64,000 nt of DNA from an uncultured Bacilli bacterium (GTDB taxonomy: Bacteria > Bacillota_I > Bacilli_A > RF39 > UBA660), in the NCBI GenBank assembly GCA_934086955.1, contig CAKOIN010000004.1:46719-110718 (forward strand). Reading direction: 5' to 3'. The position numbers were made by a program, and so were the translations under genes. Shown here in pieces: positions 34,886-36,133 of this stretch. The notes under the pieces were generated by a model, which saw nothing but the letters and a program-made list of their open reading frames with translations, was not told the DNA's origin and did not search any database. Every line of letters begins with the position of its first letter. Position 1 is the first letter of the stretch.

Positions 34886-36133
34886 CTACTTAATAACAAA
34901 TTTCAAATTCCATGGAATTCTTCCACTTCGTTTAAACCAATTTATATCATTATTATTTTTAGCATATACGGTATTAGCACTACAATTACTAAACATATCT
35001 CTATTATTAGTAACACTTGAAATATCAAAACTGCTTAGATCAATTGTAGTAGATTTAGCATCTAAAAACATCTGCTCCATATTTTTAACTTTACTTGTAT
35101 TAAAACTTGTTAAATTCAAATCTTTTATTTTAGTACTAGAAAACATTCCATACATATTAGTTACATTGCTTGTATTGAATTTACTTAAATCTAATTCTTC
35201 TATATTTGTTGAACTAAACATCCAACTCATATCAGTTACTTTACTTGTATTAAAACCAGTAACATCTATTTTTTTAGCAACAGCCCCATAAAACATTCCA
35301 TACATAGTCTCAACATTCTTTGTATTAAATGTACTTAAATCAATATTAGTAAAACTAGTATAAGAGAACATTGCTCCCATATCTTTAACATTATCAGTAT
35401 TAAAACTACTTAAATCTATACTAGTAGATTCACTAGCATAAAACATATATTTCATAGAAACAATAGGCTTACCACCTATATTAGTACATACTTGAGATTT
35501 TATTGGATTCTTATTTTCTTTATTTGTAAGTTGTACTCCCCAACCATCAATATTTATATTTTCCCATGTAAGTCTTGTAGAACCTGAACTTCCTTGTTGC
35601 ATATATCTATAAGTATACGCTCCACTTACAAATTCAATACCTCTTTTTAATGTTCCATCATAAGCACAATTAATTACAGGAACGACTATTTCAGGTTCAT
35701 CTGGCTCAACTGGCTCAATAGGTTCATCATCTTTTCCTATTTCACATACTTCATTTTTTATAGTACTTAAATCTAAATCAATTATATTTCTATATTCACC
35801 ACTAATACAATATTCTCCATTAGTTACCATAAAATATTCAATAGAACCCTTAGCATCTATTTTAATATCATAAACTAAATTATTAGATTCTAAACTTAAT
35901 TTAGTTTTTTCATCATTAGATCTTATTCTTTCTATTTTTGTATCTTTTATACCATCAATTAAATATTTTTTACTAACCTCTCTATATACTGTTTTAGCCT
36001 CATTTAAAAACGATTTCTTTTTTGATTCATTAAATAATTTAATGATATTTGGTACTGATAATACCACAAGTATAGCAAGTACCGCAATTACCGCTAGTAA
36101 CTCCACTAAAGTAAACCCAGTTTTACACTTCAT
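34886..36133 (-). CDS. Type IV pilin-like N-terminus fused to DUF285 (PF03382-type) repeat domain
   Basis: 'MKCKTGFTLVELLAVIAVLAILVVLSVP' class III signal; C-terminal repeats 'DLSxFNTSNVTNMxxMF' are typical of DUF285. Confidence 0.75.
   Translation of the reverse strand: MKCKTGFTLVELLAVIAVLAILVVLSVPNIIKLFNESKKKSFLNEAKTVYREVSKKYLIDGIKDTKIERIRSNDEKTKLSLESNNLVYDIKIDAKGSIEYFMVTNGEYCISGEYRNIIDLDLSTIKNEVCEIGKDDEPIEPVEPDEPEIVVPVINCAYDGTLKRGIEFVSGAYTYRYMQQGSSGSTRLTWENINIDGWGVQLTNKENKNPIKSQVCTNIGGKPIVSMKYMFYASESTSIDLSSFNTDNVKDMGAMFSYTSFTNIDLSTFNTKNVETMYGMFYGAVAKKIDVTGFNTSKVTDMSWMFSSTNIEELDLSKFNTSNVTNMYGMFSSTKIKDLNLTSFNTSKVKNMEQMFLDAKSTTIDLSSFDISSVTNNRDMFSNCSANTVYAKNNNDINWFKRSGRIPWNLKFVIK

What the first reader, a model, noticed from the sequence alone, without database searches (positions are those of the whole stretch)
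34886..36133. Pilin-like N-terminus fused to DUF285 repeats
DUF285 (Mycoplasma-type surface repeat 'FNTSNVTNMxxMF') fused behind a prepilin signal suggests a pilus-presented repeat adhesin, which is an unusual fusion.
Basis: seen in the sequence. Interest (0 to 1): 0.5.

Follow-up and report, generated by a model that had tools for sequence, protein, structure and literature searches.

The report
Modular type IV pilin carrying DUF285 adhesin
This gene encodes a pilus-subunit "handle" joined by a flexible linker to a leucine-rich-repeat-like (DUF285) binding domain; the fusion is real, but it is one of many such "modular pilins" in a group of small-genome gut bacteria and its architecture is already catalogued.

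Summary
ORF 34886..36133 (-), 415 aa, scores above the curated cut-offs for N_methyl (25.7 bits) and DUF285 (127.5 bits, E 2.9e-37). A confident AlphaFold model shows three parts: a type IV pilin module (54-residue helix plus four-stranded sheet), a disordered acidic and proline-rich linker, and a BspA/TpLRR-type solenoid with six 25-residue repeats.

The claim that the fusion is unusual does not hold.
- 62 of the 120 best database homologues have the same prepilin N-terminus.
- The window carries a second pilin with the same carrier module and a different cargo (DUF6273).
- The species, which matches MAG "Mycoplasmatota bacterium SUG767", has at least 11 such genes.
- Raynaud et al. 2021 already list the architecture IPR012902-IPR005046.

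The best reading is a modular minor pilin that displays an LRR adhesin on a type IV pilus. In a related MAG with about 75% identity between orthologues, PilB-, PilC- and PilD-like genes occur together with N_methyl+DUF285 genes. I could not locate this machinery in the window's own species. A membrane-anchored surface protein that never enters a filament therefore remains a live rival.

Side observation: in this lineage the same DUF285 cargo is also fused to TasA/camelysin-like, SipW-type carriers.

Verdict: a new member of a known kind, of modest interest.

The parts
34886..36133 (-). Complete gene for the 415-aa modular pilin (N_methyl + DUF285)
   Evidence: ORF list; Pfam and NCBIfam scores; AlphaFold model with mean pLDDT 89.9
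36116..36133 (-). Leader peptide MKCKTG (residues 1-6), ending in the Gly at position -1 of the predicted prepilin-peptidase cleavage site
   Evidence: Read directly from the sequence. All 62 prepilin-type homologues have a short basic leader; 59 of them end in Gly and 3 in Ala (P0022, P0043, P0066)
35735..36115 (-). Mature pilin module (residues 7-133): alpha1 helix 9-62 with F+1 and E+5, a four-stranded sheet (69-112), and the Cys109/Cys130 pair
35696..35734 (-). Linker rich in Asp, Glu and Pro (residues 134-146, KDDEPIEPVEPDE)
   Evidence: pLDDT is below 50 for residues 134-144. Similarity to the paralogue, and to homologues with the TasA-type carrier, starts or stops here
35420..35695 (-). 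N-terminal cap of the cargo (residues 147-238: 'CAYDG..YTYRY..GWGVQLT..KPIVSMKYMF'), with the Cys156/Cys216 pair
   Evidence: Nearly invariant columns in alignment A1; high pLDDT; also shared with DUF285 proteins on the TasA-type carrier
34970..35419 (-). Six tandem 25-residue DUF285/PARCEL repeats (residues 239-388)
34886..34969 (-). C-terminal cap (residues 389-415, ending ..IPWNLKFVIK) plus the stop codon. The last codons are the recombination point with a tandem paralogue seen in a related strain
   Evidence: The window's 3' end matches the body of L001 gene 1 up to AAATTTGT and the tail of L001 gene 3 after it
36156..36183 (-). Promoter-like site of the gene's own, TTGACT-16 nt-TATAGT, with TG before the -10 hexamer. 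A GGTAGGA ribosome-binding site lies 7 nt before the ATG
   Evidence: Consensus scan, 10 of 12 matches; the site is conserved in the related strain L001
36191..36207 (-). Terminator-like hairpin plus T-run that closes the upstream sipW-like gene and separates it from the pilin gene
   Evidence: The stem is kept in L001 with a different loop
34852..34879 (-). Weak hairpin AAGTGA-TTAAGT-TCACTT followed by ATTTTTATT, just after the stop codon; a possible terminator
   Evidence: Read from the sequence. It falls below the scan's G+C criterion. It is identical downstream of L001 gene 3
12690..13808 (-). Paralogous modular pilin (372 aa): the same carrier module with a different cargo (DUF6273)
   Evidence: Six-frame motif scan; Pfam N_methyl 1.7e-06 and DUF6273 7.1e-14; 50% identity confined to residues 4-131

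Best explanation
The gene encodes a modular type IV (minor) pilin made of a carrier and a cargo.

Shown:
- The protein begins with a canonical class III signal peptide: a short basic leader, Gly-1, Phe+1 and Glu+5.
- This is followed by a predicted pilin fold, a roughly 13-residue disordered acidic and proline-rich linker, and a 270-residue BspA/TpLRR-type leucine-rich-repeat solenoid built from a cap and six DUF285 repeats.
- The gene has promoter-like and terminator-like signals of its own.

Inferred:
- A PilD-type prepilin peptidase cuts after Gly6 and methylates Phe7.
- The hydrophobic alpha1 helix then lets a PilB/PilC-type machine insert the subunit into a thin type IV filament whose bulk is a short (about 165-190 aa) major pilin.
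- Because the cargo is bulky, the subunit probably sits at the tip, or sparsely along the shaft.
- There the concave LRR face binds a host, dietary or microbial ligand.

The species carries at least 11 pilin genes with this carrier and varied cargos. The number of DUF285 pilin genes at this site changes by recombination between their conserved 3' ends. The gene is therefore one element of an exchangeable adhesin repertoire.
For: - Domain scores are above the curated cut-offs.
- The full-length model has pLDDT 89.9, with helix 9-62, a four-stranded sheet, a disordered stretch at 134-144 and a solenoid.
- F+1 and E+5 are invariant in 62 homologues, with Gly at -1 in 59 of them and Ala in 3; G, F and E are invariant in all 103 pilin-module ORFs. 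This degree of conservation is expected for peptidase recognition and filament assembly, not for a plain membrane anchor.
- A profile of the carrier head alone, without alpha1N, finds 785 cluster representatives. The head always lies at residues ~29-135, in proteins of ~125 to 2158 aa. That pattern fits stand-alone pilins plus many carrier-cargo fusions.
- Cargos are swapped on one carrier: DUF285 in 27, DUF6273 in 15, LRR_5 in 3, PT-HINT in 2 and Dockerin in 2 of 103 proteins.
- The machinery exists in the lineage. A GspE/PilB-like ATPase (T2SSE 2.6e-124; TIGR02533 1.7e-141) lies next to a short pilin in L037, L063, L068 and L092-L095. A T2SSF platform protein (5e-50) and a prepilin peptidase (A24_N_bact 1.3e-28 plus Peptidase_A24 3.7e-12) lie in L080.
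- All of these are in MAG CAKOJN01, which also has N_methyl+DUF285 genes (L016, L022). Its orthologues are 58-90% identical to those of the window species.
- Wall-associated genes occur in the window and its extension: a sortase domain, YfhO, LtaS and LytR. They imply a cell wall that a membrane-tethered 415-aa protein would barely cross; this last step is inference.
- There is an experimentally characterised precedent in S. sanguinis PilB, a pilin module joined to a vWA module (PMC8179133).
Against: - No PilB, PilC or PilD gene lies in the 64-kb window, nor in the ~200 kb of same-species loci that I examined. Machinery in this species is inferred from a relative.
- The pilin genes are scattered among housekeeping genes, far from any assembly genes.
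- Eleven or more bulky pilins per genome is far more than any characterised pilus is known to carry.
- Nothing here shows expression, processing or filament incorporation.
- The ligand is unknown.
Confidence: 0.6

Rival explanations
1. The protein is a pilin-anchored surface protein that never enters a filament. The class III signal peptide serves only as an export and anchoring device, and the alpha1 helix stays in the membrane, whether processed or not. The pilin head and linker act as a stalk that holds out the DUF285 domain. This would be analogous to the DUF285 lipoproteins of mycoplasmas, or to archaeal bindosome proteins that carry pilin-type signals.
For: There are many paralogues per genome, at least 11 in this species, and 13 and 9 loci respectively in RUG840 and RUG12335. 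They are scattered among housekeeping genes with no linked assembly genes. The cargos are bulky, in proteins of up to ~2000 aa. No machinery lies in the window. DUF285 proteins are typically membrane-tethered surface proteins (PMC2996958).
Against: Strict conservation of E+5 and of a full pilin head with a Cys pair is not needed for a mere anchor. The lineage keeps a highly conserved PilB-like ATPase (70-85% identity), a short pilin, PilC and PilD. The organism appears to be walled, which would bury a membrane-tethered protein of this size; that step is inference.
Confidence: 0.3
2. The gene belongs functionally to the adjacent SipW/TasA-like fibre operon (36224..39719). Its product would be processed by the SipW-like signal peptidase and attached to a TasA-like fibre.
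For: The gene lies 90 bp downstream of a sipW-like gene on the same strand, and this position is kept in the related strain. Many DUF285 homologues do carry a TasA/camelysin-type N-terminus (PF12389) with an 'AYFS' signal.
Against: The protein has a prepilin signal, not a SipW-type signal. A terminator-like hairpin and a separate promoter-like site lie between sipW and the gene, and both are conserved in L001. More distant homologues are not next to sipW.
Confidence: 0.04
3. The pilin-like N-terminus is a chance hydrophobic signal sequence or an annotation artefact, for example a wrong start codon or an assembly chimera. On this view there is no real fusion.
For: The N_methyl score is only a few bits above its cut-off (25.7 against 21.2). 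One database variant, P0001, has an odd internal duplication that may be an assembly artefact.
Against: Identical or 99%-identical proteins are found in independent assemblies, and a 78%-identical orthologue lies at the syntenic site. The motif is conserved in hundreds of relatives. A pilin fold is predicted beyond the signal peptide. A ribosome-binding site and a promoter-like site sit in front of this ATG.
Confidence: 0.01

Closest known systems
Modular type IV pilins sensu Raynaud et al. 2021 (S. sanguinis PilB = pilin + vWA; PilC = pilin + lectin), PMC8179133
   Same: An N-terminal IPR012902/N_methyl pilin module is joined by a short linker to a large binding module that is not specific to pilus biology. 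That paper proposes tip display. Its Dataset S1 already lists the exact architecture IPR012902-IPR005046 (DUF285): 9 proteins with one copy, 4 with three copies, and further multi-copy variants.
   Different: The cargo is an LRR-like DUF285 solenoid rather than a vWA or lectin module. The gene is not in a pil locus. The carrier is shared by at least 11 paralogues per genome, against two modular pilins in S. sanguinis. No member with a DUF285 cargo has been studied experimentally, as far as the searched literature shows.
DUF285 / PARCEL-repeat surface proteins (Mycoplasma mycoides LppQ-type lipoproteins; 'BspA family leucine-rich repeat surface protein' in NCBI naming), PMC2996958
   Same: Tandem 25-26-residue amphipathic repeats with the FNTSxVTxMxxMF signature. 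The Pfam and TIGR02167 scores are strong. A surface location is predicted.
   Different: The N-terminus is a prepilin signal plus a pilin head rather than a lipoprotein signal. The repeats are too diverged at the DNA level to register as a tandem array. The host is a walled gut member of the Bacilli rather than a mycoplasma.
BspA/TpLRR-type bacterial LRR adhesins (T. forsythia BspA family, T. pallidum TpLRR, S. pneumoniae PcpA, Listeria internalins)
   Different: Sequence identity is only 8-15%. The anchoring mode differs: those proteins use choline-binding, LPXTG, lipoprotein or T9SS anchoring. No ligand is known.
Com pilus pseudopilins (ComGC/GD/GE/GF) of monoderm bacteria
   Same: The N-terminal 70-80 residues align with the ComGC, ComGE and ComGD models (E 2e-07 to 6e-05). 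Both occur in monoderm Bacilli.
   Different: All scores are far below the equivalog cut-offs (for example 31.1 against 75). The protein is 3-4 times longer and carries a cargo domain. There is no comG operon context.

Membership tests
Type IV pilin / type 4 filament subunit | Class III signal peptide: a short positively charged leader ending in Gly, then a ~21-residue hydrophobic tract with Phe+1 (methylated) and Glu+5 | tested here: met
   The sequence reads MKCKTG|FTLVELLAVIAVLAILVVLSVPN. PF07963 scores 25.7 bits against a cut-off of 21.2, and TIGR02532 scores 24.1 against 16.3. The motif is invariant in relatives.
Type IV pilin / type 4 filament subunit | 'Lollipop' fold: a ~50-residue N-terminal alpha1 helix packed on an antiparallel beta-sheet | tested here: met
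Type IV pilin / type 4 filament subunit | Cleavage and N-methylation by a dedicated A24 prepilin peptidase | not testable with these tools
   This needs biochemistry. A PilD-like gene (A24_N_bact + Peptidase_A24) was found in a related MAG (L080). None was found in the window or in the same-species loci.
Type IV pilin / type 4 filament subunit | Polymerisation by a PilB-type ATPase and a PilC-type platform encoded in the same genome | tested here: inconclusive
   PilB-like genes are present in relatives (L037, L063, L068, L092-L095), and PilC-like plus PilD-like genes are in L080. MAG CAKOJN01 has all three together with DUF285 pilins. None was seen in the window or in ~200 kb of same-species loci. 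The full genome could not be searched.
Modular pilin (Raynaud et al. 2021) | An N-terminal pilin module, plus a linker, plus an additional recognisable domain not specific to pilus biology | tested here: met
   N_methyl plus DUF285; disordered linker at 134-144; cargo with an LRR fold; the architecture is listed in Dataset S1 of PMC8179133.
DUF285 / PARCEL repeat proteins | Tandem ~25-26-residue repeats that match PF03382 / TIGR02167 above the curated cut-offs | tested here: met
   PF03382 scores 127.5 bits against 25. TIGR02167 scores 105 bits against 30, in 5 stretches. Six full repeats were read in register.
DUF285 / PARCEL repeat proteins | Palindromic (dyad-symmetric) repeat-coding DNA, as described for PARCELs | not tested
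   Only a tandem-repeat scan was run. It found no 75-bp array, so the copies are diverged at the DNA level. Dyad symmetry was not examined.
Mycoplasma-type DUF285 surface lipoproteins | Lipoprotein signal peptide with a lipobox Cys | tested here: not met
   The N-terminus is a prepilin signal. There is no L-x-x-C lipobox.
SipW-dependent TasA/camelysin-like fibre proteins | A SipW-type signal (hydrophobic stretch followed by an A-[YW]-F-[ST]-like motif) and a TasA/camelysin N-terminal domain | tested here: not met
   The protein has no such motif or domain. The neighbours at 36797..37891, 44782..45339 and 45468..46061 do have the motif.
Com pilus pseudopilins (ComGC/GD/GE/GF equivalogs) | Score above the NCBIfam equivalog cut-off, and comG operon context | tested here: not met
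   ComGC scores 31.1 against 75, ComGE 30 against 49 and ComGD 23.4 against 70. There is no comGA or comGB nearby.

The most novel reading that the evidence does not exclude
In this clade of small-genome gut Bacilli (MAGs labelled Mycoplasmatota, Tenericutes, Bacilli, or Clostridium sp. CAG:524 / CAG:1000), surface adhesion may work as a plug-and-play system. A large, recombining repertoire of cargo modules (DUF285, DUF6273, BspA LRR_5, PT-HINT toxin, dockerin and many unannotated ones) would be grafted onto two unrelated fibre-subunit carriers. One carrier is a conserved type IV pilin module. The other is a TasA/camelysin-like, SipW-processed module. One pilus machine and one TasA-type fibre could then each display many alternative tips. 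The same DUF285 cargo (57% identical between P0022 and P0021) shuttling between the two carriers would be the first example of one adhesin module shared by a type 4 filament and a donor-strand-exchange fibre.
Probability: 0.3. Interest if true: 0.6.

Novelty: new member of a known kind. Interest (0 to 1): 0.3.

Why it matters
If these proteins really are pilus subunits, an uncultured but common lineage of the human gut carries an unusually large library of modular pilins: at least 11 per roughly 1.5-Mb genome, and about 800 distinct 50%-identity clusters for this one carrier. That would make it a natural test bed for how type IV pili gain functional versatility through tip-displayed modules, and for how reduced-genome gut bacteria attach to hosts or partner cells. 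The DUF285 domain has had no assigned function since it was first described. Here it would gain a concrete, testable role as a filament-displayed LRR adhesin. For this individual gene the result is ordinary: a correctly spotted but common and already catalogued architecture.

Tried and rejected
2. Tandem Repeats Finder found no 75-bp array in the gene. The repeats are visible only at the protein level.
3. I searched the window for pilus machinery. Only a Tad-like set was found at the left edge (CpaF-like 160..1359 and two RcpC-like genes). It extends into TadB/C-like genes in L010 without a peptidase. It was rejected as the cognate system because the pilin has a classical GFxxxE signal, not an Flp-type one.
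4. A strict regular expression for A24 peptidases found none in 1.4 Mb of related loci. A looser one found the PilD-like gene in L080.
5. Operon membership with sipW was considered and rejected on the terminator, the promoter and the lack of conserved linkage.
6. Phase variation through the T-run in the promoter spacer was considered. The spacer is 16 nt in both the window and L001, so there is no evidence for it.
7. Literature searches for RF39 or Tenericutes pili, and for BspA-pilin fusions, returned nothing specific.
8. I could not tie a PilB, PilC or PilD gene to the window's own species.

Full report
**Observation.** The finding's coordinates coincide exactly with one ORF on the minus strand, 34886..36133, 415 aa, with an ATG start.
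- Pfam scores it as DUF285 (PF03382, E 2.9e-37, 127.5 bits, cut-off 25) and as N_methyl (PF07963, E 8e-06, 25.7 bits, cut-off 21.2).
- NCBIfam adds the PARCEL repeat model TIGR02167 (9.7e-31, five stretches) and the prepilin cleavage/methylation domain TIGR02532 (24.1 bits, cut-off 16.3). Hits to the ComGC, ComGD, ComGE, GspG and PilA equivalogs stay far below their cut-offs.
- The N-terminus is MKCKTG|FTLVELLAVIAVLAILVVLSVPN, and the quoted motif FNTSNVTNMYGMF is present.

**Anatomy.** An AlphaFold2 model built on 50 homologues is confident (mean pLDDT 89.9). It shows:
- a helix spanning residues 9-62, followed by a four-stranded sheet (69-112);
- a disordered segment at 134-144, within the acidic and proline-rich stretch KDDEPIEPVEPDE;
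- a continuous high-confidence solenoid from about residue 150 to the C-terminus.

Read in register, the cargo has a cap (147-238, with the motifs YTYRY and GWGVQLT and a Cys156/Cys216 pair), six 25-residue repeats (239-388) and a C-terminal cap. The repeats are too diverged to register as a DNA tandem array.

**Transcription signals.** A terminator-like hairpin with a T-run (36207..36191) closes the upstream sipW-like gene. A promoter-like TTGACT-16-TATAGT (36183..36156) and a GGTAGGA ribosome-binding site precede the ATG. Hairpin, -35 and -10 are all conserved in a related strain. The gene looks like a transcription unit of its own.

**How common is the fusion?** A search of 5.8 billion clustered proteins returned 7935 hits.
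- Among the best 120, 62 begin with the same prepilin signal. All 62 have Phe+1 and Glu+5; position -1 is Gly in 59 and Ala in 3.
- At least 42 others begin with a TasA/camelysin-type N-terminus (PF12389) carrying an 'AYFS' SipW-type signal.
- NCBI names members "BspA family leucine-rich repeat surface protein" from Tenericutes, Mollicutes or Bacilli MAGs.
- Raynaud et al. 2021 surveyed InterPro for pilins with extra modules. Their Dataset S1 lists IPR012902-IPR005046 (9 proteins, plus multi-copy variants) (PMC8179133). PMC2996958 states that IPR005046 is Pfam 03382/DUF285.

The architecture is thus neither rare nor uncatalogued, although I found no experimental work on any member.

**A shared carrier with many cargos.**
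- A six-frame scan of the window found a second gene with the same N-terminus, 12690..13808 (-), 372 aa. It is N_methyl + DUF6273. It is 50% identical to our protein over residues 4-131 only, including both Cys, and unrelated afterwards.
- Scanning one genome per species with a profile of the pilin module found 469 relatives. The 79 loci kept come from gut MAGs labelled Mycoplasmatota, Bacilli, Tenericutes, Erysipelotrichaceae, or Clostridium sp. CAG:524 / CAG:1000, often with many loci per MAG.
- Of 103 non-redundant pilin-module ORFs in these loci, all match N_methyl. DUF285 is carried by 27, DUF6273 by 15, LRR_5 by 3, PT-HINT by 2, Gly_rich_2 by 2 and Dockerin by 2. About half have no Pfam cargo.
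- A profile of the pilin head without the generic alpha1N helix hits 785 cluster representatives out of 1.84 billion (214 at E <= 1e-10). The head always lies at residues ~29-135, in proteins of ~125 to 2158 aa. Of the best 150, 99 are longer than 210 aa and 30 carry DUF285 motifs.

**Organism and local variation.**
- The window is 95-97.6% identical in DNA to contig JALFKQ010000032 of "MAG: Mycoplasmatota bacterium SUG767" (L014). It is 100% identical over 11.4 kb to a Hadza gut contig (L011).
- Counting the SUG767 loci plus the window gives at least 11 pilin-like genes in this species, four of them with DUF285.
- In a strain about 87% identical in DNA (L001, L002), the syntenic site between sipW and an mcrB-like gene holds three tandem N_methyl+DUF285 genes (415, 501 and 452 aa) where the window has one.
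- The window's gene equals the body of gene 1 up to AAATTTGT (the KFV codons) and the tail and downstream hairpin of gene 3 after it. This indicates a deletion or an expansion by recombination between conserved 3' ends.
- The orthologue is 78% identical overall: 70% in the pilin module and 79-85% in the cargo.
- More distant homologues sit singly or in small groups between housekeeping genes (PolC, PolA, GlyRS, DivIVA) with no linked assembly genes.

**Is there a machine to assemble it?**
- The window holds no PilB, PilC or PilD. Its left edge carries a Tad-like CpaF ATPase and two RcpC-like genes. The locus continues beyond the window with TadB/C-like genes but no peptidase. I do not regard it as the cognate system, because the pilin's signal is the classical GFxxxE type.
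- Among the related loci, a GspE/PilB-like ATPase lies divergently next to a short pilin of 164-193 aa (T2SSE 2.6e-124; TIGR02533 1.7e-141; TIGR02538 1.1e-137). The synteny ProRS - short pilin <-> PilB - PBP2 - LexA is conserved in several relatives. The ATPase is 70-85% identical across many relatives.
- Locus L080 carries a T2SSF platform protein (5e-50) followed by a prepilin peptidase (A24_N_bact 1.3e-28, Peptidase_A24 3.7e-12).
- L068 (PilB), L080 (PilC, PilD, and a DUF6273 pilin) and L016 and L022 (N_methyl+DUF285) all belong to one MAG, CAKOJN01. Its housekeeping orthologues are 58-90% identical to, and syntenic with, those of the window species.

A complete core type IV pilus machine therefore co-occurs with this pilin family in a close relative. 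Its presence in the window's own species is inferred, not shown.

**Mechanism.**
- Shown: the architecture of signal peptide, pilin fold, linker and LRR solenoid, and the gene's own expression signals.
- Inferred: cleavage after Gly6 and methylation of Phe7 by a PilD-type enzyme; insertion through alpha1 into a filament made mainly of the short pilin by PilB/PilC; display of the LRR module at the tip or sparsely along the shaft; and ligand binding on the concave LRR face.
- The invariance of E+5 and of the Cys-bridged head argues for assembly constraints rather than a plain anchor.
- Wall-related genes in and beside the window suggest a wall that a membrane-tethered protein of this size would hardly cross: a sortase domain, YfhO, LtaS and LytR. 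This step is inference.
- The main rival, which I rate at about 0.3, is that these proteins stay in the membrane and use the pilin module only as an anchor and stalk. It is favoured by the large number of bulky paralogues and by their scattered genomic positions.
- Membership of the neighbouring SipW/TasA-like operon is unlikely: the signal type is wrong, a terminator and a promoter intervene, and the linkage is not conserved.

**Side observation.** The window contains three clusters built around a SipW-like peptidase (28708..29253, 36224..36778, 44157..44771).
- Each is preceded by one to three proteins with an 'S/T-Y/F-A-W/Y-F' signal motif.
- The 185-aa and 197-aa proteins of the third cluster are 29-30% identical, over their full length, to the N-terminal PF12389 carrier domain of the DUF285 homologues P0023 and P0021 (E 8e-10 and 2e-14).
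- P0022 has the pilin carrier and is a paralogue present in this species. P0021 has the TasA-type carrier. The two share the whole cargo, from the YCTFDG cap to the C-terminus, at 57% identity, while their carriers are unrelated.

The same adhesin module has evidently been grafted onto two different fibre subunits. This is the most novel thread here, but it concerns the lineage rather than this gene.

**Verdict.** This is a real, correctly spotted fusion. It is best described as a modular type IV pilin with a BspA/TpLRR-like DUF285 cargo. It is a new member of a known and already catalogued kind, abundant in its clade, and of modest interest (0.3). Confidence is about 0.95 in the architecture and about 0.6 in filament display.

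Noticed in passing
window 28708..32070, 36224..39719 and 44157..46061 (all - strand): Three separate clusters are built around a SipW-like signal peptidase (28708..29253, 36224..36778, 44157..44771). 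Each is preceded by 1-3 proteins with a conserved 'S/T-Y/F-A-W/Y-F' signal-anchor motif. The 185-aa and 197-aa proteins of the third cluster are homologous to the PF12389 (camelysin/TasA-like) N-terminal domain of other DUF285 proteins (E 8e-10 and 2e-14). These are possibly TasA-type fibre systems.
   Followed up: partly
database proteins P0021 and P0023 against P0022: The same DUF285 cargo (cap plus repeats, 57% identical) is found behind either a type IV pilin carrier or a TasA/camelysin-type carrier, and the similarity starts exactly at the linker. This points to domain shuffling between two kinds of fibre subunit.
   Followed up: partly
window 12690..13808 (-), with 11013..12620 (-): A second modular pilin (N_methyl + DUF6273, 372 aa) shares the carrier module. 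It lies directly upstream of a 535-aa protein with a C-terminal sortase domain.
   Followed up: partly
L001 8652..12855 and L002 8646..12849, against window 34886..36133: A related strain has three tandem N_methyl+DUF285 genes where the window has one. The window's gene is the body of gene 1 joined to the tail of gene 3, with the crossover at AAATTTGT. This implies copy-number change by recombination at conserved 3' ends.
   Followed up: yes
window 160..3000 (-), continuing in L010 11212..15304: A Tad-like locus: a CpaF-type ATPase, two RcpC/CpaB-like proteins, TadB/C-like membrane proteins and small candidate pilins (100 and 176 aa). No prepilin peptidase was seen in the 10 kb beyond the window.
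   Followed up: partly
window 21370..28701 (-): A giant 2443-aa protein with seven BspA-type LRR_5 stretches (E 5.5e-92) and a CBM_2 domain lies immediately downstream of the first SipW-like cluster. The arrangement is conserved in the related strain L001.
   Followed up: no
window 32075..34785 (-): A McrB-like AAA protein with an N-terminal membrane segment (526 aa; PADLOC candidate defence family PDC-M26A, 9.2e-38) is paired with a DUF2357 (McrC-like) protein. The pair sits between two SipW clusters and directly downstream of the pilin gene.
   Followed up: partly
window 42396..44140 (+): A collagen-triple-helix-repeat protein (224 aa, E 4e-24) is followed by a glycosyltransferase family 2 protein with TPR repeats.
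   Followed up: no
database protein P0001 (534 aa): This 99%-identical variant of the window protein has a perfect 119-residue internal duplication, bounded by 'IDLS' at both ends. It is either real repeat-mediated duplication or an assembly artefact.
   Followed up: no
L015, L042, L055, L071, L076, L078, L081 (assembly CAVBMP01): Seven contigs carrying these pilin genes, which belong to low-G+C Bacilli, are deposited under the name 'Bacteroides helcogenes'. This is probably a contaminated or mislabelled bin.
   Followed up: no
alignment A3 (pilin-module ORFs from L013-L091): Some proteins with the same pilin carrier have Pretoxin-HINT/intein-like, dockerin or glycine-rich cargos. This suggests that pilin-borne toxins or cellulosome-type modules occur in relatives.
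   Followed up: no
L037 6117..8272, L063 5354..7270, L092-L095: A conserved core arrangement, ProRS - short pilin (164-193 aa) <-> PilB-like ATPase - PBP2 - LexA, is found across relatives. PilC and PilD lie elsewhere (L080, after LepA). The pilus genes are therefore dispersed rather than organised in one operon.
   Followed up: partly
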